Shown: positions 2,407 to 27,340, numbered from the stretch's first letter. The stretch is DNA of 29,281 nt from an uncultured virus (IMG/VR IMGVR_UViG_3300035445_000156) (IMGVR_UViG_3300035445_000156:62001-91281); one strand, 5' to 3'. Made by a program: numbers and translations. The notes: generated by a model from the letters alone, not told the origin.

Positions 2407-4290
2407 GTGAGGGTCCGCGAGCAGAGCCCCGACATGGGTCAAGATGACGGAGCCGTATCGCGCGCCGAGTTGGCCAGGGACAGGGCGCTCGTGGACGCCG
2501 TCCTGCGCCGCGCGGCGCTCGCCCGGACGAGCCCGAAGGTCGGCTTCTCGTTCGTCATGCGGGAGGAGCACGGCGAGCGCAGGCGCATCACGACGCTGCC
2601 CCACCAGCGGGTGATGATCGACTTCCTGGCACAGCACGACCGGGCCAACCTGCGCGCCTTCGTCGGCAGCTCCAAGACGTTCGTCCTGACCTACCTCGTC
2701 TTGACCCTGCTCGGCGCCGACCCGACCGCTCGCGGCGCGATCCTGAGCGCGACGCAGGACCAGGCGAAGAAGCCCCTGCGGCTCGTCTCGCAGTTCATCG
2801 AGAACCCCGACAACGCCTTCCCGGAGCTCGCGCTCGTCTACCCGCGCCTCCGGCCGACGCGGCGCAAGAGCGAGCCGTGGACGCAGGCGGAGATCGTGGT
2901 CGACCGGCCGGCGGGCATCCGCGACCCGAGCCTCGTCGCGGTCGGGATGGACACGGGCTCGCTCCCCGGGTCGCGCCTGTCATTCATCGTCCTCGACGAC
3001 GTCCTGAACGAGGCGAACACGCGGACGCCCGAGGCGCGGAAGAAGGTCCTCTCGTTCCTGCTCTCGACCGTGTTCACGCGCGAGGACATCCGGAACACGA
3101 AGATCTGGAACGCGACGCAGCCGTGGCACCCGGAGGACGTGACCTACGTGCTGCAGAAGTCGGGCTGGCCGACGCTGGAGATGGACGTGTGGGGCAACGT
3201 CGGGATCTGGGGCGCGCCCGACTTCGACACGGACGACATCCGGCCGGCGGCGCGGCGCGAGGGCCCGTATCACCGGCTCACCGCGCACGACTCGGCCGAG
3301 CACGGCGCGCCGCTCACGGTCGCCTACCCGGACGGGACGCGCGAGCTCGCGCGCGTCGGGCCGGTCGAGATAACACCGGTGTTATCTCCGGGACAAACCG
3401 CCGCGGGCGCCCGCCTCGAGCACTTCGACCTGGAGGAGGTCGTCCCGCTCTGGCCCGGGAAGTTCGGGCACGCGGAGATCCCGGGCATCCGGCAGAAGTT
3501 CGCGGCGCTGCCCGGCAAGTTCGCGCAGGCGTACGAGATGAACCCGCGCGATGACGAGCAGGCCGCGTGCAAGCAGGCGTGGGTGGACGCCTGCAAGGCG
3601 AACGGGCTCGCCATGGGACACCGGCGGATGGTCTCCCGCTACGACGGGCCGAACCTCACGGTGACGGGCGTCGACCTCGCGGTCGGCAAGAAGGCCGGCA
3701 GCGGCAAGACGAGCCTCTTCACGTACGAACTCCTGCCGACAGGCAAACGGAAGATCCTCAACATCCAGATCGGGCGCTGGTCGGGCCGGGAGATCGTGAC
3801 GCGCGTCCGAAACACGGAGCGCGACTTCAAGTCGATTGAACGGGTCGAATCCAACGCGGCTCAGGACTACCTGCGGCAGTGGGCGCTCGACGAGGAGGAC
3901 CTGCAGCGGGAGGAGCGGCGCGAGGCGCGCCGGCGCGCGGGGCAGGCGGCCAACACCGCTCCCCCCGAGCCCGCGTCGCTCCCGCTCATCCGCGCGCACT
4001 TCACGGGCCGGGAGAAGCACGACCCGACCTACGGCGTGCAGGGCGTCTTCATCGCGATGGAGAACGCGGTCTGGGTCATCCCCTGCGAGGACGACGGCAG
4101 CGTGCAGCCCGAGGTCCAGCAGTGGGTAGAGGACTGCCTCTACTTCCGGCCCGGCGCGCACACGGGCGACGTGCTCATGAGCTGCTGGCTCGCCTGCGAG
4201 CAGGAGCGCGAGGTCACGCGCGGGCGGGGCAGGCCGGACCCGGACGGCGAGCAGCAGCAGAGCGTCGCGGCCGCGCTGCTCTCCCGCTGA
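2407..4290 (+). CDS. terL: terminase large subunit
   Basis: Q-motif-like LPHQ, deviant Walker A (RAFVGSSKT), Walker B (GSRLSFIVLDD), PLWP linker, and RNase H-like nuclease motifs GVDLA, VESNAAQ and HTGDVLMS. An alternative start is ATG 2434. Confidence 0.9.
   Translation: MRVREQSPDMGQDDGAVSRAELARDRALVDAVLRRAALARTSPKVGFSFVMREEHGERRRITTLPHQRVMIDFLAQHDRANLRAFVGSSKTFVLTYLVLTLLGADPTARGAILSATQDQAKKPLRLVSQFIENPDNAFPELALVYPRLRPTRRKSEPWTQAEIVVDRPAGIRDPSLVAVGMDTGSLPGSRLSFIVLDDVLNEANTRTPEARKKVLSFLLSTVFTREDIRNTKIWNATQPWHPEDVTYVLQKSGWPTLEMDVWGNVGIWGAPDFDTDDIRPAARREGPYHRLTAHDSAEHGAPLTVAYPDGTRELARVGPVEITPVLSPGQTAAGARLEHFDLEEVVPLWPGKFGHAEIPGIRQKFAALPGKFAQAYEMNPRDDEQAACKQAWVDACKANGLAMGHRRMVSRYDGPNLTVTGVDLAVGKKAGSGKTSLFTYELLPTGKRKILNIQIGRWSGREIVTRVRNTERDFKSIERVESNAAQDYLRQWALDEEDLQREERREARRRAGQAANTAPPEPASLPLIRAHFTGREKHDPTYGVQGVFIAMENAVWVIPCEDDGSVQPEVQQWVEDCLYFRPGAHTGDVLMSCWLACEQEREVTRGRGRPDPDGEQQQSVAAALLSR
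3367..3399 (+). repeat. 33-bp palindromic dispersed element, copy 1 (inside terL)
   Basis: GAGATAACACCGGTGTTATCTCCGGGACAAACC, read in frame as EITPVLSPGQT. Confidence 0.97.
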
Positions 4291-4559
4291 GCATCATCCG
4301 ACGACGAATGAATCCCTATCGCACATCGCCGTGTCCGATCGAACGACGCGGACATGCACGCGGTCTTGGCTTGTTCGCGCTCTTCTTCGCGGCAATGGGC
4401 GTCCAGATGGTTGACTCCTATCCTGCAGAAGCGTGGACGCTGAGCGGCGGAGCGGGCTGCCTGATCGGGAGCTGCATCAGCGCGGCGTACTTGTGGTTTG
4501 CATGGGTGCTCCTCCGGGGGACGGTGCGATCATGAGCGTCACCTGCTGAGCATCATCCG
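4286..4559 (+). repeat. 15-bp direct repeats GCTGAGCATCATCCG (4286-4300 and 4545-4559) flanking a small gene
   Basis: Exact match read from the sequence. Confidence 0.85.
4308..4535 (+). CDS. small membrane protein (two hydrophobic segments)
   Basis: MNPYR... 75-aa ORF with hydrophobic stretches GLGLFALFFAAMGV and CLIGSCISAAYLWFAWVLL; visibly lower GC. Confidence 0.55.
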   Translation: MNPYRTSPCPIERRGHARGLGLFALFFAAMGVQMVDSYPAEAWTLSGGAGCLIGSCISAAYLWFAWVLLRGTVRS

Positions 4560-4563
4560 GGGC

Positions 4564-5010
4564 ATGCGCGTCCGAGAGGAGAAGTCGATCACGGTGACGA
4601 TGGTGCGACCGAAAGGTAAGGAGCTGCGGATCGAGATCCCGGCGCTCGCCGTCTTCGGCGACTTCGCGGCGACCGAGCGTCTGCGATTGGACGGTGAGAC
4701 CTATTCCGTACTCTCGCGGGAACCGGACGCGCGCGAGTGTCGGATCCTGCCTTCTGGCCGGCGCTCGTCGGTCCCCGAAGGGCATGTCCGGGCGGCGACC
4801 TACGCGGTGACGCACGTGCCGACGGGCCTGCGGGCGATCGACCGGATCCGGACCCGCAAGGCGGCCGTCGAGGCGGCGGAGGCGTGCTCGAAGACGGGCT
4901 TCGACTACTCGCTCCGGGACGACCCGAACCGGAGCGACGAGTGGTCCTCGATGGTCGCGGCGATCGTCGCGGTCAAGCGCGACCTCGAGGCGCGGCGGGC
5001 GACGTTCTGA
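4564..5010 (+). CDS. hypothetical protein
   Basis: ATG 4564 follows CATCAT-N7; contains a YAVTHVPTGL motif of the kind seen in small phage proteins. Confidence 0.65.
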   Translation: MRVREEKSITVTMVRPKGKELRIEIPALAVFGDFAATERLRLDGETYSVLSREPDARECRILPSGRRSSVPEGHVRAATYAVTHVPTGLRAIDRIRTRKAAVEAAEACSKTGFDYSLRDDPNRSDEWSSMVAAIVAVKRDLEARRATF

Positions 5011-5013
5011 CCC

Positions 5014-6072
5014 CTAGCGGCGCGCGGCCGCGGCCATCGCCCGCGCCTCCCTGATCCCCGCCTTGAGCGTCGCCCGCGTCACGAAGCCCTCGATCGCGAC
5101 GTCCTGCTCGACCATCGTCTGCGCGACCGCGCCCCGGATGCCGGTGAGGACGCAGCGCGCCCCGAGCAGCGCGAGGACCCGCGCGAGCTTGACGAAGGCG
5201 TCGACGACGCCGCTGTCCATGACGGGCACGCCGGTCACGTCGACGATGACGACCTCGACGCCCCTCGCCGTCACGGTCGCCGACGCCTGCTCGACTATCT
5301 GCAGCGACCGGGCGCTGTCGAACACGCCGACGATCGGGAGCAGGAGCACCCCTTCGTCGATCTCGATCGCGGGCGTCGACAGTTCGGCTATCGCCCGCTC
5401 CTGCGCGCGGGTCTTGTCGACCAGCGTCTCGAGCCGTTCGTTCGCCTCGACGAGTTCGGTCTCCCTCGCCGCGAGTCGCTCGTTCGTCTCCTGCAGCTCG
5501 GCGACGAGCGCGAGCAGTCGCTCGTTCGCGACCCTCGACGACTCCGCCTCCCGCTCCGCGCTCTCGGCCGACACGCGCGCATCTTCCGCCAGTCGCTCGG
5601 CCCGCGCGGTCTGCTCCCGCAGCTCGACTCCCTGCCGGCCGAGCGCGAGCAGGTCCGGCCGGCGCTTGTGCAGCACGTAGGCGGTCGCGACCGAGACCGC
5701 GCCCCCCGCCGCGTAGAGCTTCACCGCGAGCCAGTAGTAGGGCCAGTAGAGCAGCAGGACGCTCGCGGCGTGCGTCGCGCCGCAGAGGACGATGAACAGG
5801 CCGAAGAGGGTCAGGAGCCGGCCGCCGGGCCGCACGGCAAGCCCGAGATAGACCGCGACGAGCACCACCGGGATCCACGTGTAGGCGGCGGAGAAGGAGC
5901 CGTTCCAGAGGACCCACAATCCCCGGAGCGACTCGTCCTCGGTCGTGCGCAGGCACTCGACGCGCTCGAACCACGGGAACGCGAACCACGTCCAGAGCAC
6001 GAGGGCGGAGAGGACGACCGAGCCGGCGATCTCGAGGCCGAGGGTCGCCGCGGGACGGATGCGCTGCTTCAT
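5014..6072 (-). CDS. membrane sensor: ethylene-receptor-like TM domain + coiled coil + RsbR-like STAS domain
   Basis: TM helices carry AYTWIP, FIVLCGATH and YWL...VSVATA; a heptad-rich linker follows; the C-terminus has ELSTPAIEI...LLPIVGVFDSAR...VDVTGVPVMDS...LLGARCVLTGI, typical of RsbR/STAS. Confidence 0.9.
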   Translation of the reverse strand: MKQRIRPAATLGLEIAGSVVLSALVLWTWFAFPWFERVECLRTTEDESLRGLWVLWNGSFSAAYTWIPVVLVAVYLGLAVRPGGRLLTLFGLFIVLCGATHAASVLLLYWPYYWLAVKLYAAGGAVSVATAYVLHKRRPDLLALGRQGVELREQTARAERLAEDARVSAESAEREAESSRVANERLLALVAELQETNERLAARETELVEANERLETLVDKTRAQERAIAELSTPAIEIDEGVLLLPIVGVFDSARSLQIVEQASATVTARGVEVVIVDVTGVPVMDSGVVDAFVKLARVLALLGARCVLTGIRGAVAQTMVEQDVAIEGFVTRATLKAGIREARAMAAAARR

Positions 6073-6092
6073 GGCCGCGCATCATCCGGCGT

Positions 6093-6653
6093 ATGAGCCA
6101 ACGACCGATCGACCCGGAAGCAGAAGGATTCATCGATTCGATACCGGCGGAGACGGCGAGATACGTGTCCGCGGCGAAGAAGATCGATCTGACGTGCGGG
6201 GGCTTGCTCCTGCAGGACTCCCGGGAGCTCCTCCGCGGGGACGCGGGCGGCGAGATAACACCGGTGTTATCTCCGGGACAAACCGAACGGCCGAACGATC
6301 TGCTCGGCAAAACGGTCCTGCACGGACCGAGCGGTGTCGTCGGATCCGTACGTCGGATCTACGGGCCGGGCGAGTACCTGGTCAAGCCGAAAGGCGTCGA
6401 GACGAGCGGCCGGCCGGTGAGCGAGTCGGTCGTCGAGCTCGAGGACGGCAACGCCTTCCTCTTCCGGTCGGGCGCGTTCACGGTGCTGGAGGCGCCGGAG
6501 CTGCGACTCTGGAAGCTCGCCGGCCTGGCAGTCCGGGAGGCAGCGGAGAACATTGTCGGGGCCGGCGCCGCCTTCAGGGTCACCCCCGAGACGACGACCG
6601 CGATCTTGAAGGCGGCGCTCTCCGCGCAGCTCCGGACTCTCTCGCTCGACTGA
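6093..6653 (+). CDS. hypothetical protein
   Basis: ATG follows CATCAT-N7; 186-aa ORF containing element copy 2 in frame. Confidence 0.65.
   Translation: MSQRPIDPEAEGFIDSIPAETARYVSAAKKIDLTCGGLLLQDSRELLRGDAGGEITPVLSPGQTERPNDLLGKTVLHGPSGVVGSVRRIYGPGEYLVKPKGVETSGRPVSESVVELEDGNAFLFRSGAFTVLEAPELRLWKLAGLAVREAAENIVGAGAAFRVTPETTTAILKAALSAQLRTLSLD
6252..6284 (+). repeat. 33-bp palindromic dispersed element, copy 2
   Basis: Identical to copy 1. Confidence 0.97.
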
Positions 6654-6681
6654 GGCGTTCGGGCGCTGATACCGTCCCGCC

Positions 6682-9599: not shown

Positions 9600-9617
9600 G
9601 CGAATAGTCTTCCCCGC

Positions 9618-9953: not shown

Positions 9954-9962
9954 TTCGTGTTT

Positions 9963-10694: not shown

Positions 10695-11357
10695 ATGACG
10701 ATCAAGATCGAAGAGGCGGGACGGCAGGCGCGCCGCGAGGCGTTCGCCGCCCTATTGCTGTGGTGCGCGGGTCTCGCCGCCTATGCTGGCTGCGGCCCGG
10801 GCGCCGGAGCTCAGGTCGACGGGCCGACCGACCCGCCGCCGTCGAACCCGACCGGGTTCGGGACCGCGGACTGCGTCCCGTACACGTGCGAGTACTTGCG
10901 CGCGGCTTGCGGCAGGCCGGGCGACGGCTGCGGGGGCGAGCCGCTCGACTGCGGCGAGTGCCCCGCCGGCTCCGCCTGCGAGCACCCGCCGGACCTGGGC
11001 GCCGCGTTCTCGGCCGGCGAGTCGCTCGCTTGGTGTTCGCCGGGCACGAGCGCCGCGTCCCTCGTCGGTCCGCCAGACGTTCGTCTCTCCGACTGGTGCG
11101 CGGACAACGGCGTCGAGTGCGGCCCGGTCATCGACGCGCAGGGCGACGTGACCGACTGCGGGGCGTGCGCCCCGGGCTTCGCCTGCGGCAACTGGCCCGG
11201 CCGCTGCTGCGGCGAGCGCTCGGCGGCGGAGAGCGCGGTCGCGTGCGCGGACTCGTCCCTGCCGCGGCTCATCTCGTGGTGCTACGCGCAGCCGGAACCC
11301 GGCTGCGTCGAGACCCCCCTGCCCGGCGACAGCATCGGCGCGTGGTGCTGTCCCTGA
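10695..11357 (+). CDS. Cys-rich putative lipoprotein of myxobacterial type
   Basis: Signal-like hydrophobic stretch with lipobox-like YAGC; repeated CG...D..G...DCG.C..G.AC units. Confidence 0.7.
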   Translation: MTIKIEEAGRQARREAFAALLLWCAGLAAYAGCGPGAGAQVDGPTDPPPSNPTGFGTADCVPYTCEYLRAACGRPGDGCGGEPLDCGECPAGSACEHPPDLGAAFSAGESLAWCSPGTSAASLVGPPDVRLSDWCADNGVECGPVIDAQGDVTDCGACAPGFACGNWPGRCCGERSAAESAVACADSSLPRLISWCYAQPEPGCVETPLPGDSIGAWCCP

Positions 11358-11376: not shown

Positions 11377-11709
11377 ATGCTCGTCAACAGACTGATTTCC
11401 GGCTCGGCCGCTCTCCTGCGATGGGCGGCCGAGGTCCTGGAGAGCCGGATCGGAGATAACACCGGTGTTATCTCCGGGACAAGCCAGGAAGCGGAGAACG
11501 ACTACGTCCCCGCGCAGGACCCGGTGACGCCCGAGGCCCGCGCGCTGCTGCGCGGCGAGTGCGCGCACGGGATGACGAAGGACTGCGCGACGTGCTCGTA
11601 CGAGGGGAAGCACGGGCCGGGCGCCCAGTCCCCGCCGCCCCCTGACGACGCGGTCCCGGCAGACAGGTACTTCTCCGCGAAGCCGGCCCGCAGGGTGTTC
11701 CGGCCGTGA
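11377..11709 (+). CDS. hypothetical protein with CxHG...CxxC motif
   Basis: TAGCCT-N7 before the ATG; the stop overlaps the portal start. Confidence 0.6.
   Translation: MLVNRLISGSAALLRWAAEVLESRIGDNTGVISGTSQEAENDYVPAQDPVTPEARALLRGECAHGMTKDCATCSYEGKHGPGAQSPPPPDDAVPADRYFSAKPARRVFRP
11453..11485 (+). repeat. 33-bp palindromic dispersed element, copy 3
   Basis: The palindrome is intact and extends to 26 bp (11451-11476); the tail variant is CGGGACAAGCC; read as DNTGVISGTS. Confidence 0.95.
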
Positions 11710-13517
11710 GCGCCCTCGCGCGCGTCCTGTCGGTCGTCGCTCCCGGGCCCGCGATGGGCGCCGCGAGGGCGGGCCCCTCCCCGACGTTCCCGCGCGGCGC
11801 GACGGTCCTCCCCTCCTCGTTCGGCGTGGACCCGGCGATGCTCGGGCAGGGCTTCCGCGCGGCCGAGTTCTTCCACTCGCCGCGATCGAAGGAGCTCGCG
11901 TTCCGGGAGTCCTTCTTCCGGTGCGAGCAGCACGACCGGAAGATCTACGACTTCGACGGGCGCGTGATCCGGCCCGGGTCGCTCTCGACGCAGCCGTTCA
12001 TCGGCAAGAGCCTGCCGACCTTCTACGTCCCGCTCGACGACCGGCGCCCCTCCGACCCGCAGCGGCTCGCCCGGAAGATCACGCGCGACTTCACCGCGAT
12101 GCTCTACGGCGAGGGCACGGCCCCGCGCGTCGTCGTGCGCGGCGACCCGAAGACGGAGGACTTCGCGCTCGCGCTCGCGGAGGCGCAGGGGCTGACGAGC
12201 GTCATGGCGCGCGCGCGGAACATCGGCGGCGCGACGGGCACGGCGGTCGTCTCGTGGCGCTTCGTCGCCGGCAGGCCGCAGGCGACGCCGCACCGGCCGC
12301 AGTTCGTGCACGTGCACGAGTGGGAGGACCGGGGCCGGCACGTCGTCCGGCACGCGACGCAGCTCTACCAGGTAAGCCGCGCGGTGTGCGACCCGGGCGG
12401 CGGCAAGCCCCGGGCGGCGCTCTTCTGGTACCGGCGCGACTGGACGCCGGAGGCCGACGTCTTCTTCTACGAGGCGCCGGTCGGGAAGGACGACCCGCTC
12501 TGGGTGGTCGACGAGGAGCAGACGCACGAGCACGGCGACGGCTTCGCGCACCTGGTCTGGGTGCCGAACGTCGCGGACACGGACGAGACGGCCGTCGACG
12601 GGCTGCCCGACTACGACGGGCTCTACGAGAACCTGCTCTCGCTCGACAAGGTCGCGAGCGTCACGACGCGCGGCGCGACGGTGAACCTCGACCCGACGCT
12701 CAAGCTCCGGATGGACCCGGAGGTGGTCCAGCGCTTCGGGGTGAAGAAGGGCAGCGACAACGCGATCGTCACGGGCAAGGACGGGGACGCCGACTACATG
12801 GAGCTGTCGGGCTCGTCGATCGAGGTCGGGCACCGGCTCACCGCCGAGCGCCGGCAGCACGCCCTGGAGATCTCCGGCTGCGTCTCGCCGGACCCGAACG
12901 TCGTCGCGGCCGCCGGCACGAGCGGCCTGGCGATCCGGCTCCTCTACCGGCCGATGACGAGCGCCTGCAACGACATGCGCGTCGCGTACGGCGCGGGGCA
13001 GGTGCGCCTGCTCGAGCAGCAGCTCGCGAGCGCGCGGCGGGTCTACGGCAGGCGGGGCGCGGAGGTGGACGACGAGGGGCGGCTCCGGCCGGCGCGCGAG
13101 TTCGTCGACCTGCCCTACCGCGTCGACACGGAGGACGTGCTCGACCCGGAGACGGGCGAGCCGACGGGCGAGACGACGACCACGCTCGTCGAACGCGAGC
13201 CGGGAGAGGGCGGGCAGGTCGCGCTCGTGTGGCCCGACTACTTCGAGCGGACGCCCGCGGAGAAGCAGGTCGAGCTCGCCGCGATCCAGGCGGCGGCCGG
13301 CGGCAAGGCGCTGATCAGCCACGAGACGGCGGTCGAGATGGCCTGCGACGTGCTCGGGGTCGACCCGAAGCGCGAGTGGGGGCGGGTCGTCGAGGAGCAG
13401 CGGCGCGCGAGTGAGCGAGAGGCAGAGATGACCCCCGGGATCGGCGGGGGAGTGTCGGCGGAGGACGAGCTGCCGCTCGGAGCGGAACCGGACGCGCCCG
13501 CATCATCGGGCGCATGA
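11706..13517 (+). CDS. portal protein
   Basis: 603 aa, located upstream of the minor head and capsid genes; SPP1-like portal features (HEHGDGFAHLVWVPN, TSGLAIRLLYRP, VALVWPDYF, ISHETAVE, acidic tail). Confidence 0.85.
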   Translation: MSALARVLSVVAPGPAMGAARAGPSPTFPRGATVLPSSFGVDPAMLGQGFRAAEFFHSPRSKELAFRESFFRCEQHDRKIYDFDGRVIRPGSLSTQPFIGKSLPTFYVPLDDRRPSDPQRLARKITRDFTAMLYGEGTAPRVVVRGDPKTEDFALALAEAQGLTSVMARARNIGGATGTAVVSWRFVAGRPQATPHRPQFVHVHEWEDRGRHVVRHATQLYQVSRAVCDPGGGKPRAALFWYRRDWTPEADVFFYEAPVGKDDPLWVVDEEQTHEHGDGFAHLVWVPNVADTDETAVDGLPDYDGLYENLLSLDKVASVTTRGATVNLDPTLKLRMDPEVVQRFGVKKGSDNAIVTGKDGDADYMELSGSSIEVGHRLTAERRQHALEISGCVSPDPNVVAAAGTSGLAIRLLYRPMTSACNDMRVAYGAGQVRLLEQQLASARRVYGRRGAEVDDEGRLRPAREFVDLPYRVDTEDVLDPETGEPTGETTTTLVEREPGEGGQVALVWPDYFERTPAEKQVELAAIQAAAGGKALISHETAVEMACDVLGVDPKREWGRVVEEQRRASEREAEMTPGIGGGVSAEDELPLGAEPDAPASSGA

Positions 13518-13795
13518 ACGGGACGACATCGATCGACGAAGCATCGCCCCCCGCGGTCGGGATTAAACTCAGGGAATCCGCGCTCTTCCTGAGCGACGCG
13601 CAGCACAGGCGGGCGAGAGCCGCGTTCCGACGCTTCTGGGTCGAGAGCGGGTCGCAGACAAACGCCGCGCGACTGCTCGGCGTCTCGCAGCAGCAGTTCT
13701 CGGCCGTCTTCACGGGACGGGTGAGCCTCGGGATGGTCGCCCTCCTGTCGGTGCGGCTCGGCGTCCTCGTGCGGGACATCATCAGCGATCGATGA
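13514..13795 (+). CDS. XRE/Cro-like helix-turn-helix protein
   Basis: SQTNAARLLGVSQQQFSAVFTG motif; CATCAT-N7 before the ATG. Confidence 0.75.
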   Translation: MNGTTSIDEASPPAVGIKLRESALFLSDAQHRRARAAFRRFWVESGSQTNAARLLGVSQQQFSAVFTGRVSLGMVALLSVRLGVLVRDIISDR

Positions 13796-14190
13796 AGCTC
13801 GTCGTCGTCGAGAGCCCGTACGCGGGCGATACGCCGGAGCAGGTCGAGCGGCACGTCGAGTACGCCCGGGAGGCGATGACCGACTCGTTCCTGCGCGGCG
13901 AGGCGCCGTTCCTGAGTCACCTGCTCTACCCGCGGGTGCTCGACGACTCGAACCCGAAGCAGCGCGAGGCGGGGATCGCGGCCGGGCTCGCGTGGGGCGA
14001 CCGGGCCGAGCTGCGCGTCGTCTACTGCGACCTCGGGGTCTCGTCGGGGATGAAGCGAGGGATCGATCGGGCGCGGCAGATCGGACAGCCCGTCGAATAC
14101 CGGAGTACCCGGGGAAACGACTACGTCGCGATCGACGAGGCGGAGAACGAACTGCTGCGCGTCATCGAGGCGCCAGACTCGTCCGGGTGA
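13792..14190 (+). CDS. nucleoside 2-deoxyribosyltransferase-like (DUF4406-like) phage protein
   Basis: VVESPYAG...APFLSHLLYP..LDD....R..GI..G..W...VY.DLGVSSGM pattern. Confidence 0.7.
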   Translation: MKLVVVESPYAGDTPEQVERHVEYAREAMTDSFLRGEAPFLSHLLYPRVLDDSNPKQREAGIAAGLAWGDRAELRVVYCDLGVSSGMKRGIDRARQIGQPVEYRSTRGNDYVAIDEAENELLRVIEAPDSSG

Positions 14191-16548: not shown

Positions 16549-16582
16549 CAGACTCCCGCGACACGACCCCGGGAGAGGTCAG

Positions 16583-16615
16583 GAAGCGCTCGGTGTGGCC
16601 AGCACCGGGCGCTTC
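16583..16615. terminator. stem-loop between convergent genes
   Basis: GAAGCGCTCGGTG-N7-CACCGGGCGCTTC, a 13-bp stem with one G-U pair. Confidence 0.6.
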
Positions 16616-16620
16616 GGCTT

Positions 16621-17202
16621 TCATGCCGCGGTCCGAACTAGGTGCGGGTTCAGTGCCCGCAGTTGAACCATGAACGCCGGGTCAGGCTCCGTGAGGTGGT
16701 AGCAGCCGCCGATCAGATGGCCCCACTCTCCTGGCTTGCTGCGTGGGGTGAGCTCCGTCGCTTGTGCCAGCGGCCCGCAAACCATGTGCGTGACGGTCCC
16801 GGGCTCGACTGCATCGACCGTGTGAAATACATCGGCAGGCAGCTTGTATGTCGTGCCCGCGCCATAAGTCACGACCTCTCGCGACCACTCGAGCGCCAAC
16901 CAGCCGAAACGCCAGAGCGTCATCGTCAGAGCGCCGGCCAGGATCGTGCTCTCGAAGTCCCAAGGGTGGTTATGCGGGTGGCGCCTCGGGTCCGGCCCGT
17001 GCCACCAGTTGATCTTCTCTGTGCGCCCAGGCGATCGGAAGATGACGAGCTCTGTCTTGTAGGCGCCGCCGTGTCCGTCTGGGATGTGCAGCGGGGGCGC
17101 GGTCAGATGTGCATGGGCCAACGCGAGCCCGGCAGTCGTTTTCCGCTCGGGCGTCTCCGTCACCTCGTACACACCGCCGCCGATATGCTTCTCTTCCCTC
17201 AT
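16621..17202 (-). CDS. cupin-fold protein
   Basis: HPHNHPWDFESTILAG and YKLPADVFHTV cupin-type motifs; ATG 17202 overlaps the upstream stop. Confidence 0.7.
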   Translation of the reverse strand: MREEKHIGGGVYEVTETPERKTTAGLALAHAHLTAPPLHIPDGHGGAYKTELVIFRSPGRTEKINWWHGPDPRRHPHNHPWDFESTILAGALTMTLWRFGWLALEWSREVVTYGAGTTYKLPADVFHTVDAVEPGTVTHMVCGPLAQATELTPRSKPGEWGHLIGGCYHLTEPDPAFMVQLRALNPHLVRTAA

Positions 17203-17615
17203 GCCGCATTCTCCTTGCCGCAGCTCTCGTCCTCGCAGCCCCATGCGCCGCACCGCTTGCAGACATCCGGATCTTCCGGAGCCTTGCAGCGGCAGCATGC
17301 TTTGCCGTCCCACCAGCAGGAGCAGTGCCCGTCATCATCGGCTGGGCAGACCTGCATTGCCTCAAATTCGGCCTCGGTTCTCTCGGTCGTCATTCGCCCT
17401 TCCTCCAATCGGCGGTGAGTTCGTACGTCGTGCCCGCGCCATAAGTCACGACCTCTCGCGACCACTCGAGCGCCAACCAGCCGAAACGCCAGAGCGTCAT
17501 CGTCAGAGCGCCGGCCAGGATCGTGCTCTCGAAGTCCCAAGGGTGGTTATGCGGGTGGCGCCTCGGGTCCGGCCCGTGCCACCAGTTGATCTTCTCTGTG
17601 CGCCCAGGCGATCGG
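16850..17615 (+). repeat. exact 189-bp direct duplication (16850-17038 and 17427-17615)
   Basis: Aligned by eye over the full length. Confidence 0.93.
17199..17393 (-). CDS. small Cys-rich protein
   Basis: 64 aa with 10 Cys; strong SD GGAGG upstream. Confidence 0.6.
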   Translation of the reverse strand: MTTERTEAEFEAMQVCPADDDGHCSCWWDGKACCRCKAPEDPDVCKRCGAWGCEDESCGKENAA

Positions 17616-18152
17616 GCTCCTTTCCGCCAGGCGCCTCTTCGCCCGGCGGATGATGCTCTGCAGATCGACCTCGAAGCTCACGATGAGCGCGAGGAATTCG
17701 CGGGGCGCCCGGCGGCGCAGCATGTGCGGGATGAATTCGCTCGGCTTCACCCACCTCGACACGGCGGCGGCTGCGATCCGAGCGAGCCGGATCGCAAAGT
17801 CGTACTTGCCAGCGTCAAAGCAGCACTGCGCCGCCCAGCGGCAGACGATCGCCACCTCGGTCGGCTCACCGGGGAGCAGCGCGGCCATGAGGGCGGCTTT
17901 CATCGCCGCAGTCGCCGCGAGGTCGACGAGGATGCTTGCCGCCATCGGTTTCGCGGCCATGGCGAGGCCATATAGGTGGCGCGACGAGTCCACGAGGCGC
18001 CACCGCTCCAGGTCCCATTCCTCGCGCGACAGAATCGGCGGCGTCGCGGTAGCTTGGTAGACCACCCCTTCGGCGACGGGCGCGGCGGCAACGGCGTCTC
18101 CGTCGGCGCCGGCAACGACTTGGATCTCATTGCGGATCCGCTCGTCGCTCAT
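17547..18152 (-). CDS. hypothetical, apparently chimeric protein
   Basis: GC3-rich codons from ATG 18152; contains a 57-bp copy of another gene and terminates inside the 189-bp duplicate. Confidence 0.5.
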   Translation of the reverse strand: MSDERIRNEIQVVAGADGDAVAAAPVAEGVVYQATATPPILSREEWDLERWRLVDSSRHLYGLAMAAKPMAASILVDLAATAAMKAALMAALLPGEPTEVAIVCRWAAQCCFDAGKYDFAIRLARIAAAAVSRWVKPSEFIPHMLRRRAPREFLALIVSFEVDLQSIIRRAKRRLAERSPIAWAHREDQLVARAGPEAPPA

Positions 18153-18234
18153 CCCGAGGTCGAGCGCACGAGGGCGATGCGGACGAGCGAGCGGGCCGAG
18201 AGCCTCGTCGCGCCGGGCTGACATACTCCGGGGC

Positions 18235-18516: not shown

Positions 18517-18855
18517 GTGGACGCCGCGCAGGCGGTCCTCGTCGTGGTCGCGCCGGTGGGCGCGGCGATCGTCGCGTTCGCGAAGATCCTGCTCGACCGA
18601 CACCTGCGCGTGCTCGACCAGATCGCCGGGACGATCGCGGCGGAGATGCGCGCGGAGCGCGAGTCGCGGGAGGCGTCGCTCCGGCTGCTCGCCGAGTCGA
18701 TCGAGTCCTTCCGCGCGGCGACGAGCAAGGACTTCGATGAGTTGAAGTCCCTCGTCCGGGAGCAACAGATCTCCGACCTCGTCCGGGCGGTCCGGGACAG
18801 GCTCGACACGATCCCGGACGACCACGGACCGCGCCGTCGCCGCCCCCCGGAATGA
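18517..18855 (+). CDS. single-TM coiled-coil protein (possibly holin-like)
   Basis: N-terminal hydrophobic helix, amphipathic coil and basic tail; the holin role is speculative. Confidence 0.5.
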   Translation: MDAAQAVLVVVAPVGAAIVAFAKILLDRHLRVLDQIAGTIAAEMRAERESREASLRLLAESIESFRAATSKDFDELKSLVREQQISDLVRAVRDRLDTIPDDHGPRRRRPPE

Positions 18856-18871
18856 CTGCATCCTCTGTCCC

Positions 18872-19098: not shown

Positions 19099-19416
19099 AT
19101 GGCGAGCCCCACTTCGAGCGGCACAGGCAAGGTCTCCCCCTTCGGCGACGGGCGCGGCGGCAACGGCGTCTCCGTCGGCGCCGGCAACGACTTCGTCACG
19201 AACCCACGCGGCACGTCTGCGCCCGGGCCGACCCCGCGCGACCTCACGCGCCCGGTCCACCCGAACGTCCAGAAGTCGGGCGGCGACCCCGCGCTCGACG
19301 GCGGGAGCGTGCCCGACGGCGGGCCGCTCCCGTTCAAGGCGCCGACGGAGAAGTACGGCAACCCGCTCGGCGCGGGCACGCCCGGCAAGCCCCCGCCCTT
19401 CCGCCTGAAGGGCTGA
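19099..19416 (+). CDS. small Gly/Pro-rich protein ending GKPPPFRLKG
   Basis: TAGTCT-N8 before the ATG; GC3-rich codons. Confidence 0.7.
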   Translation: MASPTSSGTGKVSPFGDGRGGNGVSVGAGNDFVTNPRGTSAPGPTPRDLTRPVHPNVQKSGGDPALDGGSVPDGGPLPFKAPTEKYGNPLGAGTPGKPPPFRLKG

Positions 19417-20330: not shown

Positions 20331-20996
20331 GTGAAGCTCGACGAACATCTCTCGAAGGCGGACCCGAACGTCCTCGCCGACATCTTCCGCAAGATCAACC
20401 TCGCGCAGGTCCTGCGCGGGCAGGTCCCGCAGTTCCTCCGGCGCAAGGTCCCGGCGGCCGGCGTCCAGCTCGCGACGCTCGAGACGCTCGTGCTCGCCGA
20501 CAACGCGAAGGCGTCGGTCGTCATCCGCGCGACCGTCCGGGCGGGCGGCGTGACCGGCGAGCTCGACCCGCAGACGTACGGGACGACTCCCGCGACAACG
20601 CAGATCGCAGTCGCCCCGAACGGGGACATCGTCGTGCTCGCCGCCGACGCGATCACGGACATCGACGTGCACTACCTGCCCGAGCGCGGGGACGTCTACG
20701 AGACGACGATGCCCGTCATCTCCGACGTGCTCACCCCCTCGACCACATTCACTGCCTCGCCGCGCGGCATCGTGCTGCTCCTCGAGGCGGAGGCGGTCGA
20801 GGCGACGAGCACGGGGGACAAGGTCGTCCTCGTGCCCGGGTCGGTGCCGGCAGCGGGTCAGGCGGCCCTCACGGACGACGAGAAGCTCTCGGTCACGTTC
20901 GCCGCGGCCGACGCGGTGACGCGCGCCCGGGTCAAGTTCCTGCTCGTCGCGCTGCAGGACCTCGACGCGCTGCTCGAGTCGGAGGCGACCGTCTGA
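20331..20996 (+). CDS. putative head decoration/structural protein
   Basis: SD GAGGAGG; A/T/V-rich 221 aa upstream of the scaffold and capsid genes. Confidence 0.55.
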   Translation: MKLDEHLSKADPNVLADIFRKINLAQVLRGQVPQFLRRKVPAAGVQLATLETLVLADNAKASVVIRATVRAGGVTGELDPQTYGTTPATTQIAVAPNGDIVVLAADAITDIDVHYLPERGDVYETTMPVISDVLTPSTTFTASPRGIVLLLEAEAVEATSTGDKVVLVPGSVPAAGQAALTDDEKLSVTFAAADAVTRARVKFLLVALQDLDALLESEATV

Positions 20997-21027
20997 GATA
21001 ACACCGGTGTTATCTCCGGGACAAACC
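20995..21027 (+). repeat. 33-bp palindromic dispersed element, copy 4
   Basis: Identical to copy 1; overlaps the TGA stop and abuts the scaffold gene's SD. Confidence 0.97.
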
Positions 21028-21044
21028 AGAAAGGGAGAAGGGCG

Positions 21045-23692: not shown

Positions 23693-23754
23693 CGTCTCGG
23701 GATGATGCGTTCTTTGTCCGCGCTTATCCTCTCCCCCGGAAGGGAGAGGAATCA

Positions 23755-24375: not shown

Positions 24376-24411
24376 GCCTTCTCCATCGCCGTGATCCCGT
24401 AGGCTCGCCCC

Positions 24412-24822: not shown

Positions 24823-24891
24823 TCTCGCATGTGAGGAATGCCCTCCCTCGCGGGTTACCGCCCGGGCCAGGCGTTCGGGGATGATGCTGAC

Positions 24892-25509: not shown

Positions 25510-25841
25510 GCGTCGAGCGCTTCTCGGACCTTGGACTTCGACCGGACGAGGTGCCCGCGGTCGTCGAGCACGAGCGGCGCGCCGAAGAGCGGCCGGCCGA
25601 CCCACACGGCGTTTCCGTCAGCGCAATCGACCCGCCTGATCTCCTTGAAGCGCGACTGACCCACCCGCTCGATGACCGGGCGCGGTGGCACGTGCTCTCC
25701 CTCGCGCGGCAGCCGCAGGCGTCCGGACGCGAGCCAGTCGGCGACGTATGCGAGGGAGCCGACCGGGTCGTTCCCGTCGCCGACGGGCAGCTCGTGCCCG
25801 AGGCAGTCGGCGACCGAGGCGATAAGGTGGTTGTCGCTCAT
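25506..25841 (-). CDS. hypothetical accessory protein
   Basis: 111-aa minus-strand ORF whose stop overlaps the neighbour's stop at CTAG. Confidence 0.55.
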   Translation of the reverse strand: MSDNHLIASVADCLGHELPVGDGNDPVGSLAYVADWLASGRLRLPREGEHVPPRPVIERVGQSRFKEIRRVDCADGNAVWVGRPLFGAPLVLDDRGHLVRSKSKVREALDA

Positions 25842-25891
25842 GGGTCGAGACTCTAAGACATGATGCCCTATACGTCAAGGAGTTTGTCCGG

Positions 25892-26404
25892 GTGGCCTCG
25901 ATCGACCTGAAGGACGCGGCCGCGGGGGTCGACGAGCTCGGCGAGGAGGTCGAGCGGGCGGCGCTCCGCGGGCTCTACTCGGCGGCCTTGCGCGGCGTGC
26001 AGACGATCCAGACGCTCATCGTCCCGAGCCGGACGCCGCAGCCGGTCGACCGCGGGCTCTTCCGCGCGGGCTGGCGCGCCTACTTGGATATCCCGCACAA
26101 GACGGTGAGCGTCGAGAACAACGAGCCGCACGCCGTCTTCGTCGAGCACGGCGTCGCCGGCTCGCGCGTCCGGGTAGGGCGGCAGATGATCGAGGCGCTC
26201 GCGTCGTGGGTCGCGCGGAAGGGGCTCGCGTCGCAGTCGGAGGCGCGCTCCGTCGCGTGGGCGATCGCGAAGCGCATGCAGGCGCGGGGGATCTTCTGGC
26301 GCGCGGGCGCGCCCGGCTTCCGAATCCTCGAGGAGCTCGTCGAGAAGTACCTGCCGCGTTTCATCGAGGATGAAGTGCAGCGGGAGATCGGGCGGATCAG
26401 GTGA
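25892..26404 (+). CDS. HK97 gp10-like tail completion/neck protein
   Basis: PVDRGLFRAGW and HAVFVEHG motifs; SD AAGGAG. Confidence 0.8.
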   Translation: MASIDLKDAAAGVDELGEEVERAALRGLYSAALRGVQTIQTLIVPSRTPQPVDRGLFRAGWRAYLDIPHKTVSVENNEPHAVFVEHGVAGSRVRVGRQMIEALASWVARKGLASQSEARSVAWAIAKRMQARGIFWRAGAPGFRILEELVEKYLPRFIEDEVQREIGRIR

Positions 26405-26453
26405 ACTACTGAGCGAAATCGAAGGCGCCGCTCGCGCGGATAATGCTCGGGCG

Positions 26454-27131
26454 ATGACACCCGAAGAGCTCGTCACCGGCGCCCTGCCGCTCGAGCCGCT
26501 CCCGACGACCGACGCGCGCTCGGCCGCGCTGTCGCGGCTGAAGCTCTACGTCTCGCTGCTCCGGTTCCGCCGGACGGGCGACAAGGGCGGCGCCCCGGTC
26601 GAGTTCCGCGTCCGGCCGGAGGACGTCCTGACCGAGTGGCCCGACAACAACCACGAGCTGCACCTGCCGAGCGTCGCCTTCCTGCCGGCGCCGGGCGAGC
26701 TGCAGGCGCCCGCGCTCGGGCCGCCGCGCGAGCTCGAGGAGACGGTCGACGAGTTCGGCGAGGGCACCGTGCTCGTCTACGAGAGCGACTACGTCGAGAC
26801 CTTCACTGTCGAGGTGTGGGGGGCGAGCCGGGCGGAACGGCGCGCGCTCGTCGCCGGGCTCAAGGCGGCGCTCGTCGGCGAGGCGAGCCAGGCACTCGCG
26901 GTGGTCCTGCCCGACTACTACGGGCAGGTCGCGACCTTCCTCCTGCTCGGCGCGCAGAACTTCGACGACCCCGACGTCGCGCGCAACCGCAGGCGCGCCG
27001 GCCTGAGCGTGCAGCTCACGGTTCCCGAGGTGCGGCTCGCGCGCTACCCGGTGCTCCGGCCCGCCGAGTCCGTGCTCGTCCTCGAGCCCTCCTACTGCGC
27101 GACCGTCGAGCGGCCGCCCGAGTGCGCCTAG
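26454..27131 (+). CDS. putative tail terminator/completion protein
   Basis: Position before the sheath gene; LPSVAF and TVEVWGASRAER motifs. Confidence 0.6.
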   Translation: MTPEELVTGALPLEPLPTTDARSAALSRLKLYVSLLRFRRTGDKGGAPVEFRVRPEDVLTEWPDNNHELHLPSVAFLPAPGELQAPALGPPRELEETVDEFGEGTVLVYESDYVETFTVEVWGASRAERRALVAGLKAALVGEASQALAVVLPDYYGQVATFLLLGAQNFDDPDVARNRRRAGLSVQLTVPEVRLARYPVLRPAESVLVLEPSYCATVERPPECA

Positions 27132-27289
27132 AAGAGGACCCGCGCCTCGCGTCGGCGGAGCAGGCGCTCGCGCTCGGTCGGGGTCGACGGGTACCGGACG
27201 ATCTCCCGCCCCGCCTTGCACCGGAAGGCTACCGCGCCGACCTCGCCCCTCGCCTTGCGGTTCTGTCGCCTCGTGAGTATTCGCTTCAT
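27128..27289 (-). CDS. small basic protein (53 aa, not in the ORF track)
   Basis: MKRILTRRQNRKARG...EARVLF; minus-strand CATCAT-N7-ATG; the stop overlaps the neighbour's stop at CTAG. Confidence 0.55.
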   Translation of the reverse strand: MKRILTRRQNRKARGEVGAVAFRCKAGREIVRYPSTPTERERLLRRREARVLF

Positions 27290-27307
27290 GACCCGGATGA
27301 TGCGCCG

Positions 27308-27340
27308 GAGATAACACCGGTGTTATCTCAAGGACAAACC
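27308..27340 (+). repeat. 33-bp palindromic dispersed element, copy 5 (intergenic)
   Basis: The palindrome is intact; the tail variant is AAGGACAAACC. Confidence 0.95.

What the first reader, a model, noticed from the sequence alone, without database searches (positions are those of the whole stretch)
3367..27340. Five co-oriented copies of a 33-bp palindromic element, several embedded in coding sequence
Seen: GAGATAACACCGGTGTTATCTC (perfect 22-bp palindrome) plus an 11-bp asymmetric tail occurs at 3367, 6252, 11453, 20995 and 27308. The palindrome is invariant, and only the tail varies in copies 3 and 5. The element is 17/33 GC against a much more GC-rich background and forces rare codons (ATA, ACA, TTA). 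It is read in two different frames (EITPVLSPGQT and DNTGVISGT), so the constraint is on the DNA rather than the peptide. Known analogies are the dispersed inverted-repeat centromere sites of plasmid-prophage N15 and the co-oriented stoperators of mycobacteriophage L5. Inference: this is a binding site for a phage-encoded dimeric protein (partitioning, repressor roadblock or packaging), or a frame-preserving micro-insertion element.
Basis: partly seen in the sequence, partly recalled or inferred. Interest (0 to 1): 0.85.

Follow-up and report, generated by a model that had tools for sequence, protein, structure and literature searches.

The report
Private palindrome array of a phage
This uncultivated 91-kb phage repeats one exact 22-letter DNA palindrome 15 times at fairly even intervals, as its relatives do with palindromes of their own, most likely as landing sites for a phage DNA-binding protein whose job is still unknown.

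Summary
The five copies are real and exact. They belong to 16 exact copies, 15 of them unique, in a complete 91,281-bp phage genome with a 2,887-bp terminal repeat. No copy carries 1-4 mismatches. Only 1 of the 5 window copies lies in a secure gene (TerL). The rest sit at gene borders or in doubtful ORFs.

Ten of 11 whole relatives each carry 12-31 copies of their own 18-30-bp palindrome. These are mostly between genes (150 of 211 copies). Their spacing is more even than chance, and their spelling largely follows phylogeny. They stay in place among close relatives while the flanks diverge. None is found in 185,579 bacterial species genomes.

The best reading is a genome-wide array of docking sites for a sequence-specific phage protein. 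That protein is not identified. ParB_N proteins with a ribbon-helix-helix-like tail are candidates but are not shown to bind.

A clean micro-insertion is not supported: the PolB copy involves no indel. The closest published case is the unexplained 17-bp dyad repeats of Cluster O mycobacteriophages. This scan has already noted the same kind of array on other phage DNA.

The parts
3367..3399 (+). Copy 1: 22-bp palindrome (3367-3388) plus 11-bp tail. It lies inside the large terminase gene and is read as EITPVLSPGQT.
   Evidence: Exact match. TerL assigned by PHROG phrog_38, E 3.6e-35. The site falls in a loop of variable length and is absent from the 77%-identical homologue P0002.
6252..6284 (+). 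Copy 2: palindrome plus tail, between a minus-strand STAS-domain gene (5014-6072) and a conserved small gene whose conserved part starts near 6318. An in-frame GTG sits at 6264-6266 inside the palindrome.
   Evidence: (orthologues align only from the GKTVLH motif onward).
11453..11485 (+). Copy 3: palindrome plus variant tail (one A to G). It lies between a minus-strand ORF (10811-11272) and the 603-aa gene starting at 11706. The overlapping ORF 11377-11709 is doubtful.
   Evidence: coding score 13.4; no homologue; contigs of X1, X2 and X3 break here. The variant strain shows 0 differences in 11457-11485 and 6 in 11491-11513 (Fisher P 0.005).
20995..21027 (+). Copy 4: palindrome plus tail. It overlaps the last two bases of the TGA stop of gene 20331-20996. 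A GGGAG ribosome site and the ATG at 21045 follow.
   Evidence: Contigs of X1 and X2 break here.
27308..27340 (+). Copy 5: palindrome plus tail whose first two bases differ. It is intergenic, 16 bases before the ATG at 27357, and is the right-hand terminal-repeat duplicate of genome position 914.
   Evidence: terminal repeat of 2,887 bp, 0 mismatches.
2407..4290 (+). Large terminase gene that hosts copy 1.
26395..29281 (.). Right copy of the 2,887-bp direct terminal repeat. It holds copy 5.
   Evidence: classes the record as having direct terminal repeats and being 100% complete.
13514..13795 (+). It is a lineage-specific candidate reader of the palindrome and is untested.
   Evidence: Sequence. 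No Pfam hit, no PDB sequence hit, and no homologue in 10 relatives. The helix-turn-helix call rests on my reading of the sequence only.

Best explanation
The 22-bp palindrome is a genome-wide array of docking sites on double-stranded phage DNA for a sequence-specific protein encoded by the phage. The protein is probably two-fold symmetric.

The genome holds 15 unique sites about 5.9 kb apart. Most sit at gene borders, often just upstream of a start codon or between divergent genes. The relatives do the same with palindromes of their own spelling, so reader and sites evolve together within each lineage.

I think the bound protein most likely acts on transcription units across the whole genome. 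It could be an operator, a roadblock, or a clamp-loading point, in the manner of mycobacteriophage stoperators or KorB-OB.

The 11-bp tail (GGACAAACC core) is a separate, oriented add-on found in this lineage only. It is possibly a promoter element for the phage's own sigma factor.

Shown: the array, its exactness, its placement, its even spacing, its conservation in place, its family-wide diversification, and its absence from bacterial genomes.

For: 1. Exactness. There are 16 exact copies and none with 1-4 mismatches in 91 kb. Seven other relatives show the same all-or-nothing spectrum, with 17-29 exact copies each and 0-5 near-misses.

2. Family-wide pattern. Ten of 11 whole records carry 12-31 copies of a private 18-30-bp palindrome. 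Of 80 TerL-flank loci, 22 show a repeated perfect palindrome. Sister phages share palindrome cores (PolB tree).

3. Selection in place.
- At 3 sites shared with an 80-84%-identical relative, all 66 palindrome bases are unchanged. The probability is 2e-6 if they diverged like their flanks.
- A variant strain shows 0 differences in 29 element bases against 6 in the next 23.
- In other lineages, 24 of 26 palindromes lie inside aligned segments of relatives 82-99% identical. At 4 of 4 shared sites between L038 and G009 the arms are kept while the flanks differ.

4. Placement. Of 211 copies in ten genomes, 150 are not inside a called gene, where 8-32% would be expected. The binomial P is at most 8.5e-4 in 9 of 10 genomes. 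In this genome palindromes occupy 4 of 11 divergent gene junctions against 4 of 96 others (P 0.004).

5. Even spacing. The coefficient of variation is 0.43-0.65 against about 0.92 for random placement. P is at most 0.02 in 7 of 8 genomes, and the result holds against random choice among intergenic gaps.

6. Not a host repeat. There are 0 matches in 185,579 species genomes for this palindrome and for one relative's palindrome.

7. Symmetry runs through the centre. In 6 of 10 phages the palindrome has lower GC than the genome. This fits sequence reading better than hairpin stability.

8. Published precedent. Cluster O mycobacteriophages carry 34 invariant 17-bp dyad sites that their authors predict are bound by a dimeric protein (PMC4351075, passages read).
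Against: - No reader is identified. No protein family is present in all palindrome-bearing genomes and absent from the palindrome-free G010.
- The ParB_N family is found in all 11 genomes, G010 included. The structure model of the ParB_N-like protein was too poor to use (pLDDT 55).
- In G009 all 31 copies carry the same asymmetric spelling, with a 25:6 orientation bias (P 0.0009). A symmetric dimer does not predict this. A close relative does mix the two spellings.
- Two copies in this genome share 16 further bases, giving 38 bp of identity in unrelated contexts. The tail is present at three sites here but absent from the same three sites in the close relative. Both facts point to copying, not only to selection.
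- Positions are not conserved between distant relatives. At most 3 of 8 genomes have a palindrome before the same gene family.
- The distance from the palindrome to promoter-like words varies. Most such words occur without a palindrome, for example 12 of 17 in G006. A fixed role in transcription initiation is therefore unlikely.
Confidence: 0.5

Rival explanations
1. The element is a copy-and-paste or recombination element. It would be a tiny palindromic repeat that spreads or is homogenised within the genome and serves as a crossover joint where genes are swapped, like the PeSL cassettes of T4-like phages. Any protein binding would be secondary.
For: - Two copies share 38 bp of identity.
- The tail is present at 9 right-hand sites and 1 left-hand site here, but at 0 of 6 sites in the close relative, including 3 shared sites.
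- In 4 of 6 contigs of that relative, homology to this genome stops within 3 bases of a palindrome edge. Two minus-strand accessory genes of this genome are missing there, right beside the palindrome.
- Three of the relative's 6 sites have no counterpart here.
- All 31 G009 copies share one asymmetric spelling.
- A paralogous tRNA-like element in G009 exists with and without the palindrome.
- HNH genes lie next to palindromes in G004 and G005.
- PeSLs are described as points of exchange (PMC4122927, abstract read).
Against: - In eight other pairs of relatives, 0 of 88 internal alignment ends lie within 6 bases of a palindrome edge, and 24 of 26 palindromes lie inside aligned segments in the pairs of 82% identity or more.
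- Sites are kept in place under constraint.
- The PolB copy involves no indel.
- Random insertion does not predict even spacing.
- No transposase, GIY-YIG or HNH family was found in this genome.
- No conserved target word lies beside the copies.
Confidence: 0.2
2. The element is an RNA-level signal. The transcribed palindrome would fold into a hairpin that stabilises, terminates or marks processing of polycistronic mRNAs at gene borders, possibly read by a phage RNA-binding protein.
For: - Copies sit between a stop codon and the next ribosome site, often 0-25 bases after the stop and 10-45 bases before the start.
- In G005 the ribosome site follows directly.
- Predicted RNA hairpins have energies of -6.8 to -16.3 kcal/mol.
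- G009 copies show an orientation bias.
- In G009 the palindrome occupies the anticodon-arm position of two tRNA-like elements.
Against: - A hairpin needs neither identical sequence in all copies nor a self-complementary loop, yet 9 of 10 lineages keep perfect symmetry through the centre.
- Rare variants are one-sided changes with no compensating change.
- The stems have lower GC than the genome in 6 of 10 phages.
- There is no T-run, and the terminator scan did not call any of the five palindromes.
- Palindromes are enriched at divergent junctions (4 of 11) and absent from convergent ones (0 of 11), the opposite of what a terminator predicts.
- No Rfam family matched.
Confidence: 0.12
3. The palindrome plus tail is a core promoter for the phage-encoded sigma factor. 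The half-site would act as the -35 element and the tail as the -10 element. Being palindromic, it could fire in both directions.
For: - A sigma-70-family gene is core to the clade. Sigma70_r2 hits were found in 7 of 8 orthologues, 4 of them above Pfam's cut-off.
- The tail is oriented with the genes (9 right, 1 left, P 0.02). Its end lies 8-17 bases before the start codon at 6 sites.
- Seventeen bases separate a half-site hexamer from the tail hexamer (my reading).
- Palindromes are enriched at divergent junctions.
- Relatives show -10-like words just after some palindromes.
Against: - Five of 15 copies here lack the tail, and three of those five lie inside or at the start of genes.
- The close relative keeps the palindrome without the tail.
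- The distance from palindrome centre to the -10-like word ranges from about 10 to 23 bases between lineages.
- Most -10-like words occur without a palindrome.
- G010 keeps the sigma gene but has no palindromes.
Confidence: 0.1

Closest known systems
17-bp dyad-symmetric repeats of Cluster O mycobacteriophages (Corndog and relatives; PMC4351075, passages read)
   Same: Tens of copies spread through a phage genome that is not obviously temperate. The inverted arms are invariant, with only a few one-base variants. Many copies are intergenic and some lie in coding sequence. ParB-like domain genes are present. The authors predict a dimeric binding protein, and the function is unknown.
   Different: - Here the palindrome is longer (22 bp; 18-30 bp in relatives) and perfect through the centre. 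Cluster O has 7-bp arms around a variable 3-bp spacer.
- The phage clade is unrelated: there is no DNA match and only weak partial TerL matches in the phage collection.
- Each lineage has a different spelling.
- Spacing is more even than chance.
- The Cluster O authors saw few or no rearrangements at their repeats. Here 4 of 6 sites of one close relative show homology ending at the palindrome.
Stoperators of Cluster A mycobacteriophages (L5, Bxb1; PMC6550527 passages read; PMC9283540 abstract seen in the listing)
   Same: Up to about 30 near-identical sites lie in short intergenic gaps across the genome. The spelling differs between lineages together with the reader protein. Binding stops transcription, which would also make sense of even spacing.
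   Different: - Stoperators are asymmetric, are read by a monomeric repressor, and belong to temperate phages with an immunity repressor.
- Here the sites are palindromic, no repressor or integrase was found, and orientation can be judged only from the tail.
KorB and its OB operators on plasmid RK2, and ParB-parS systems in general (PMC11790492, abstract and passages read)
   Same: Identical short palindromes are scattered over one replicon. A ParB-family protein reads them, loads as a CTP-dependent sliding clamp, and silences promoters at a distance. Loading points at regular intervals would explain even spacing. ParB_N-like genes occur in all 11 genomes of the clade.
   Different: - No ParA/IncC partner was found.
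- The ParB_N-like proteins here are short, match Pfam weakly (15.4 bits in this genome), and seem to end in a ribbon-helix-helix-like tail rather than the ParB helix-turn-helix (my reading).
- The palindrome-free relative G010 keeps such a gene.
PeSL promoter-terminator cassettes of T4-like phages (PMC4122927 abstract read; PMC2839356 seen in the listing)
   Same: Short repeated regulatory motifs lie between genes and mark points where unrelated genes are exchanged between close relatives.
   Different: - PeSLs are composite promoter plus stem-loop motifs clustered in hyperplastic regions. They are not exact palindromes spread evenly over the whole genome.
- Breakpoints at the palindromes were seen in one comparison but in none of eight others.
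REP elements and their RAYT transposases (PMC8266576, abstract seen in the listing)
   Same: Short palindromic repeats lie between genes, are specific to a lineage, and are thought to be spread by a dedicated enzyme.
   Different: - REPs are imperfect, are abundant in bacterial chromosomes, and are tied to a Y1 transposase gene.
- Here there are 0 copies in 185,579 species genomes and no such gene.
Dispersed inverted-repeat centromere sites of plasmid-prophage N15
   Same: A few identical inverted repeats are scattered over a phage genome and are read by a ParB-family protein.
   Different: N15 is a linear plasmid prophage with SopA/SopB and a protelomerase. No such family was found among 106 proteins here, and there are 15 sites rather than a handful.

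Membership tests
Phage-wide invariant dyad repeats (Cluster O type) | Tens of copies of one dyad-symmetric word with invariant arms, spread through the whole phage genome | tested here: met
   16 exact copies (15 unique) between genome positions 914 and 89308, with none at 1-4 mismatches.
Phage-wide invariant dyad repeats (Cluster O type) | 7-bp arms around a variable 3-bp spacer, in the Cluster O spelling, in a Cluster O phage | tested here: not met
   The element is a perfect 22-bp palindrome with a different sequence. There is no DNA match, and TerL matches in the phage collection are partial and at most 34% identical.
Phage-wide invariant dyad repeats (Cluster O type) | Mostly intergenic, with a minority inside genes | tested here: met
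   By my own gene calls, 8 of 15 copies are not inside a called gene, 1 is at a gene edge and 6 are inside ORFs, of which 3 are secure genes (TerL, PolB, SbcC-like).
Stoperators (Cluster A mycobacteriophages) | Asymmetric site in one orientation relative to transcription | tested here: not met
   The core is a perfect palindrome. Only the optional tail is oriented, 9 right and 1 left.
Stoperators (Cluster A mycobacteriophages) | Cognate immunity repressor in a temperate phage (integrase or parABS) | tested here: not met
   No integrase, ParA or repressor family was found among 106 proteins at E 1e-3 (Pfam). Divergent helix-turn-helix proteins could escape this scan.
ParB-parS / KorB-OB | Identical palindromic sites scattered on the replicon | tested here: met
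ParB-parS / KorB-OB | ParB-family protein with the CTPase N-domain and a sequence-specific DNA-binding domain on the same replicon | tested here: inconclusive
   Three ParB-like proteins were found by PHROGs. The Pfam ParB_N match is only 15.4 bits in this genome. There is a weak match to the Noc N-domain (E 0.5). The C-terminal ribbon-helix-helix likeness rests on inspection only. The model was unusable.
ParB-parS / KorB-OB | ParA-type partner ATPase | tested here: not met
   None among 106 proteins.
ParB-parS / KorB-OB | Presence of the protein goes with presence of the sites | tested here: not met
   The family is found in all 11 genomes, including G010, which has no palindrome array.
ParB-parS / KorB-OB | The protein binds the site and loads as a CTP-dependent clamp | not testable with these tools
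   This needs biochemistry.
REP / RAYT | Abundant imperfect palindromes in the host chromosome with a linked Y1 transposase | tested here: not met
   0 matches in 185,579 species genomes, and no Y1 transposase family among 106 proteins.
PeSL-type exchange cassettes | Insertion, deletion or replacement breakpoints between close relatives fall at the repeats | tested here: inconclusive
   4 of 6 contigs of one close relative show a breakpoint at a palindrome. Against this, 0 of 88 alignment ends do so in eight other pairs.
Intrinsic terminator | GC-rich hairpin followed by a T-run | tested here: not met
   The stem is 45% GC with no T-run, and none of the five palindromes was called as a terminator stem.
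Frame-preserving micro-insertion element | The element appears as a clean insertion relative to orthologues | tested here: not met
   PolB shows no gap against G005, G006 and G007. The TerL site is a variable loop where the nearest homologue is 8 residues shorter, not 11. The SbcC-like site lies in a poorly alignable coiled coil.

The most novel reading that the evidence does not exclude
The private palindromes would be loading sites for the clade's universal short ParB_N proteins with ribbon-helix-helix-like tails. From sites placed every 3-6 kb, these proteins would spread as nucleotide-dependent clamps and coat or silence the whole genome of a virulent phage. That would be a KorB-like, genome-wide self-marking or transcription-organising system in a phage with no partition function. 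It would also give a job to the many unexplained ParB-like genes of lytic phages and would explain the Cluster O-type repeats.
Probability: 0.2. Interest if true: 0.85.

Novelty: new variant of a known kind. Interest (0 to 1): 0.62.

Why it matters
Dispersed invariant dyad repeats in a lytic phage have been in print since the Cluster O paper of 2015 (PMC4351075), and their function is still unknown.

Here the same kind of array turns out to be a trait of a whole uncultivated clade of about 90-kb phages. Each lineage spells its own palindrome. The sites are evenly spaced, and they are held in place by selection.

That gives a natural experiment.

Tried and rejected
- **RNA evidence.** No RNA holder was listed among the public runs for this stretch. 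Transcript ends could therefore not be examined.
- **Structure.** The AlphaFold model of the ParB_N-like protein (6-row alignment) had mean pLDDT 55. I ran no fold search on it.
- **Sequence searches for a reader.**
  - No PDB sequence match for the 93-aa helix-turn-helix-like protein.
  - Only an E 0.5 match of the ParB-like protein to Noc.
  - No NusG/RfaH domain in 5 genomes.
  - No GIY-YIG in 5 genomes.
  - HNH in 2 of 5 genomes, not in this one.
- **Phyletic pattern.** No family fits 'present in all palindrome-bearing genomes, absent from G010', by BLAST clustering or by iterated profiles.
- **Regulon idea.** Palindromes do not sit before the same genes in distant relatives; at most 3 of 8 genomes agree.
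- **RNA families and tRNAs.** No Rfam family reached its gathering score in the window. No tRNA was found in the window or in genome positions 1-60,000.
- **Relatives.**
  - No megablast match in the phage collection.
  - No relative found with a single TerL query in viral contigs; the alignment query worked.
  - The exact palindrome is absent from other viral contigs.
  - The six metagenome contigs could not be extended because their records are not held. The TerL-internal site of that relative therefore stays unchecked.
- **CRISPR-repeat-like or decoy reading.** I considered this because of the length and the hairpin-plus-handle shape. There is no array here and no copy in any of 185,579 genomes, so I dropped it without further test.
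- **Trees.** Only the PolB tree and a quick TerL tree are used.

Full report
**Observation**

The 22-bp perfect palindrome occurs exactly five times in the window, at 3367, 6252, 11453, 20995 and 27308. No further site appears at up to three mismatches, and none appeared in 100 shuffles.

An 11-bp tail follows all five copies on the same side. It differs only in copy 3 (one base) and copy 5 (first two bases). The 33-bp unit is 17/33 GC. The window runs at 66-75% GC and the genome at 71%.

**Genome context**

The window is the last 29 kb of a 91,281-bp virus record classed as complete with direct terminal repeats. The repeat is 2,887 bp with no mismatch. Copy 5 is therefore the duplicate of a copy at genome position 914.

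The genome holds 16 exact copies, 15 of them unique, and none with 1-4 mismatches. Nine unique copies carry the tail on the right and one (genome 17762) carries it on the left. Five copies lack it. One decayed copy with a duplicated half-site lies upstream of a small ParB/Srx-like gene at about genome 8955-8995.

Gene calls are my own. They rest on third-position GC for this genome and on a codon-usage model for the relatives.

Pfam and PHROGs on 106 proteins describe a tailed phage with:
- a sheath and a baseplate;
- family-B DNA polymerase, DnaB-like helicase and primase;
- UvsX-like recombinase, SbcCD-like nuclease and a RuvC-like resolvase;
- ThyX, dCTP deaminase and an MT-A70 methylase;
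- three ParB-like proteins.

No integrase, ParA, transposase or RNA polymerase family was found at the thresholds used.

**Coding or not**

Only three copies lie in secure genes:
- TerL (window copy 1, read as EITPVLS);
- PolB (read as DNTGVIS), outside the window;
- an SbcC-like gene (read as DNTGVIS), outside the window.

In PolB the palindrome-coded residues align without a gap to the orthologues of G005, G006 and G007. That copy is therefore not an insertion.

In TerL the site is a loop of very variable length. The 77%-identical homologue P0002 is 8 residues shorter there.

The other window copies sit as follows:
- Copy 2 lies before the conserved part of its gene.
- Copy 3 is in an ORF with a weak coding score and no homologue.
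- Copy 4 overlaps a stop codon.
- Copy 5 is intergenic.

**Not an artefact and not a host repeat**

Contigs of the likely source run and of runs from three other studies cover the region. Contigs of X1 and X2 end at the palindromes at 11453 and 20995, and a further X2 contig and an X3 contig begin inside the 11453 copy, as expected of a repeat longer than the assembler's word.

A variant strain shows no difference in 29 covered bases of the element but 6 in the next 23.

The palindrome is absent from 185,579 bacterial and archaeal species genomes and from other viral contigs. It is present in six contigs of other metagenomes.

**Family-wide pattern**

TerL has no close relative among isolated phages. 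It has hundreds of relatives in metagenomes, many on contigs of about 90 kb. An alignment query brought in 80 loci. Of these, 22 hold a perfect palindrome of 14 bp or more at least twice.

I fetched ten whole or nearly whole relatives. Nine carry a private perfect palindrome of 18-30 bp in 12-29 copies. G009 carries 31 copies of a near-palindrome. G010 carries none.

Near-miss variants are rare in the eight genomes checked. Each has 16-29 exact copies and 0-5 copies with 1-3 mismatches.

Sister phages share palindrome cores: G006 with G007, and G005 with G009. G001, G002 and G003 also share a core. This phage differs from its sister G001.

A second palindrome, that of G007, is also absent from the species genomes.

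**Placement**

Across ten genomes:
- 150 of 211 copies are not fully inside a called gene;
- 25 lie at a gene edge;
- 36 lie deep in genes.

Only 8-32% would be expected outside genes. The binomial P is at most 8.5e-4 in 9 of 10 genomes. The exception is G008, whose gene calls are poor.

Copies typically follow a stop codon by 0-25 bases and precede the next start by 10-45 bases.

In this genome palindromes occupy 4 of 11 divergent junctions, 0 of 11 convergent junctions and 4 of 85 co-directional ones.

Spacing is more even than chance in all eight genomes tested. The coefficient of variation is 0.43-0.65 against about 0.92. P is at most 0.02 in 7 of 8 genomes, both for uniform placement and for random choice among intergenic gaps. 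G002 gives 0.06 and 0.10.

**Stability and turnover**

Distant relatives do not keep palindromes before the same genes. At most 3 of 8 genomes agree.

Close relatives do keep them. In seven pairs of 82-99% identity, 24 of 26 palindromes lie inside aligned segments. Across all nine comparisons run in that call, including one distant pair at 66% identity, none of 88 internal alignment ends lies within 6 bases of a palindrome edge. At 4 of 4 shared sites of L038 and G009 the arms are kept while the flanks differ. One near-central position reads T or C.

The relative of this phage seen in six metagenome contigs is 80-89% identical. It has the identical palindrome at three shared sites. All 66 palindrome bases are unchanged there, with a probability of 2e-6 if they diverged like their flanks. 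It also has the palindrome at three places where this genome has none.

At one of those places the palindrome supplies the last Arg codon and the stop codon of TerL. In 4 of its 6 contigs, homology stops within 3 bases of a palindrome edge. Two minus-strand accessory genes of this genome are missing there, right beside the palindrome. The tail is absent from all six sites.

**Signs of copying or direction**

- Two copies here share 16 further bases.
- All 31 G009 copies share one asymmetric spelling, 25 in one orientation and 6 in the other (P 0.0009).
- G009 has paralogous tRNA-like elements with and without the palindrome.

**Relation to promoters**

A sigma-70-family gene is core to the clade. 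Promoter-like words follow some palindromes in relatives. The distance varies, however, and most such words stand without a palindrome, for example 12 of 17 in G006.

In this genome the tail word occurs 11 times on the plus strand, 9 of them with a palindrome.

The simple promoter and terminator scans did not call any of the five palindromes.

**Candidate readers**

ParB_N-like proteins are found in all 11 genomes by iterated profiles, and in 8 of the 10 genomes searched with Pfam's model. Most end in what looks like a ribbon-helix-helix (my inspection only).

They also occur in the palindrome-free G010. The two copies in this genome have shortened tails. The structure model was unusable.

The 93-aa helix-turn-helix-like protein of the window has no detectable relative.

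No NusG or GIY-YIG family was found. HNH genes occur in 2 of 5 genomes, both next to palindromes.

**Verdict**

The data fit best a genome-wide array of docking sites for a sequence-specific, phage-encoded DNA-binding protein, kept by selection and evolving with its reader. What binding does is not known. I favour a role in organising or insulating transcription units, or in loading a sliding protein, because of three features:
- the sites sit at gene borders;
- they are enriched at divergent junctions;
- they are evenly spaced.

Copying or exchange at the sites plays some part in this lineage but is not general. An RNA hairpin role and a core-promoter role are less likely.

**Comparison with what is known**

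The nearest published case is the unexplained 17-bp dyad repeat array of Cluster O mycobacteriophages (PMC4351075). Stoperators (PMC6550527) and KorB-OB (PMC11790492) are the best mechanistic models. PeSLs (PMC4122927) are the model for exchange.

My literature searches found no description of lineage-private, evenly spaced palindrome arrays across a phage clade. The searches were few and keyword-bound.

Earlier notes of this scan describe the same kind of array in other phage windows. I treated them as leads only. I tested two of their ideas here, an RfaH-like reader and a GIY-YIG partner, and found neither.

Noticed in passing
Locus L137:17068-17136, 18820-18871 and 19316-19384 (G009, about 77.1, 78.8 and 79.3 kb): Three tRNA-like elements give weak tRNA-Sec model hits at 21-25 bits, and ARAGORN does not call them. 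Two carry the phage's palindrome where the anticodon arm would be. The third has nothing there.
   Followed up: partly
Locus L137:18240-18302 (G009): A hammerhead type II ribozyme-like match scores 33.3 bits, below the gathering score of 37 (E 3e-4). It lies between the tRNA-like elements.
   Followed up: no
window 5014-6072, minus strand: A 352-aa protein has an ethylene-receptor-like N-terminal domain (ETR1_N, E 4.8e-15) and a STAS domain (E 7.3e-13). This is an odd cargo for a phage. It has no homologue in the ten relatives, and a palindrome lies at its divergent junction.
   Followed up: no
genome 31121-31816 (locus L006:11121-11813), outside the window: A sigma-70-family factor of about 220 aa is core to the clade, with Sigma70_r2 hits in 7 of 8 orthologues. 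It is followed by a conserved 355-477-aa protein of unknown function.
   Followed up: partly
genome 8955-8995 (locus L005), outside the window: A decayed palindrome copy with one extra base and a tandemly duplicated half-site lies about 20 bases upstream of a 149-aa ParB/Srx-like gene on the minus strand.
   Followed up: partly
window 13792-14190 and genome 55684-57972: A nucleotide-pool gene set is present: DUF7768 / nucleoside 2-deoxyribosyltransferase-like, NDK, dCTP deaminase, ThyX and a dATP/dGTP diphosphohydrolase N-domain protein. This may hint at altered DNA bases.
   Followed up: no
window about 16550-18230: A stretch of about 1.7 kb has no gene called by my model and holds the window's lowest GC (0.66).
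   Followed up: no
G010 (loci L131, L132), about 49.9-53.5 kb in gene orientation: The one relative without palindromes has pairs of an 11-12-base direct repeat just upstream of three genes near TerL, plus single copies near 52.2 kb and 24.8 kb. There are 6 copies in all.
   Followed up: partly
G001 (loci L091), genes at 28607-29710 and 29934-31106: The G001 palindrome is read in one frame as the peptide TDDRSSV three times inside two proteins.
   Followed up: no
genome 734-895 and 48931-49779, minus strand: Two accessory genes of this phage are absent from the 80-89%-identical relative. In both cases the gap ends within 3 bases of a palindrome.
   Followed up: partly
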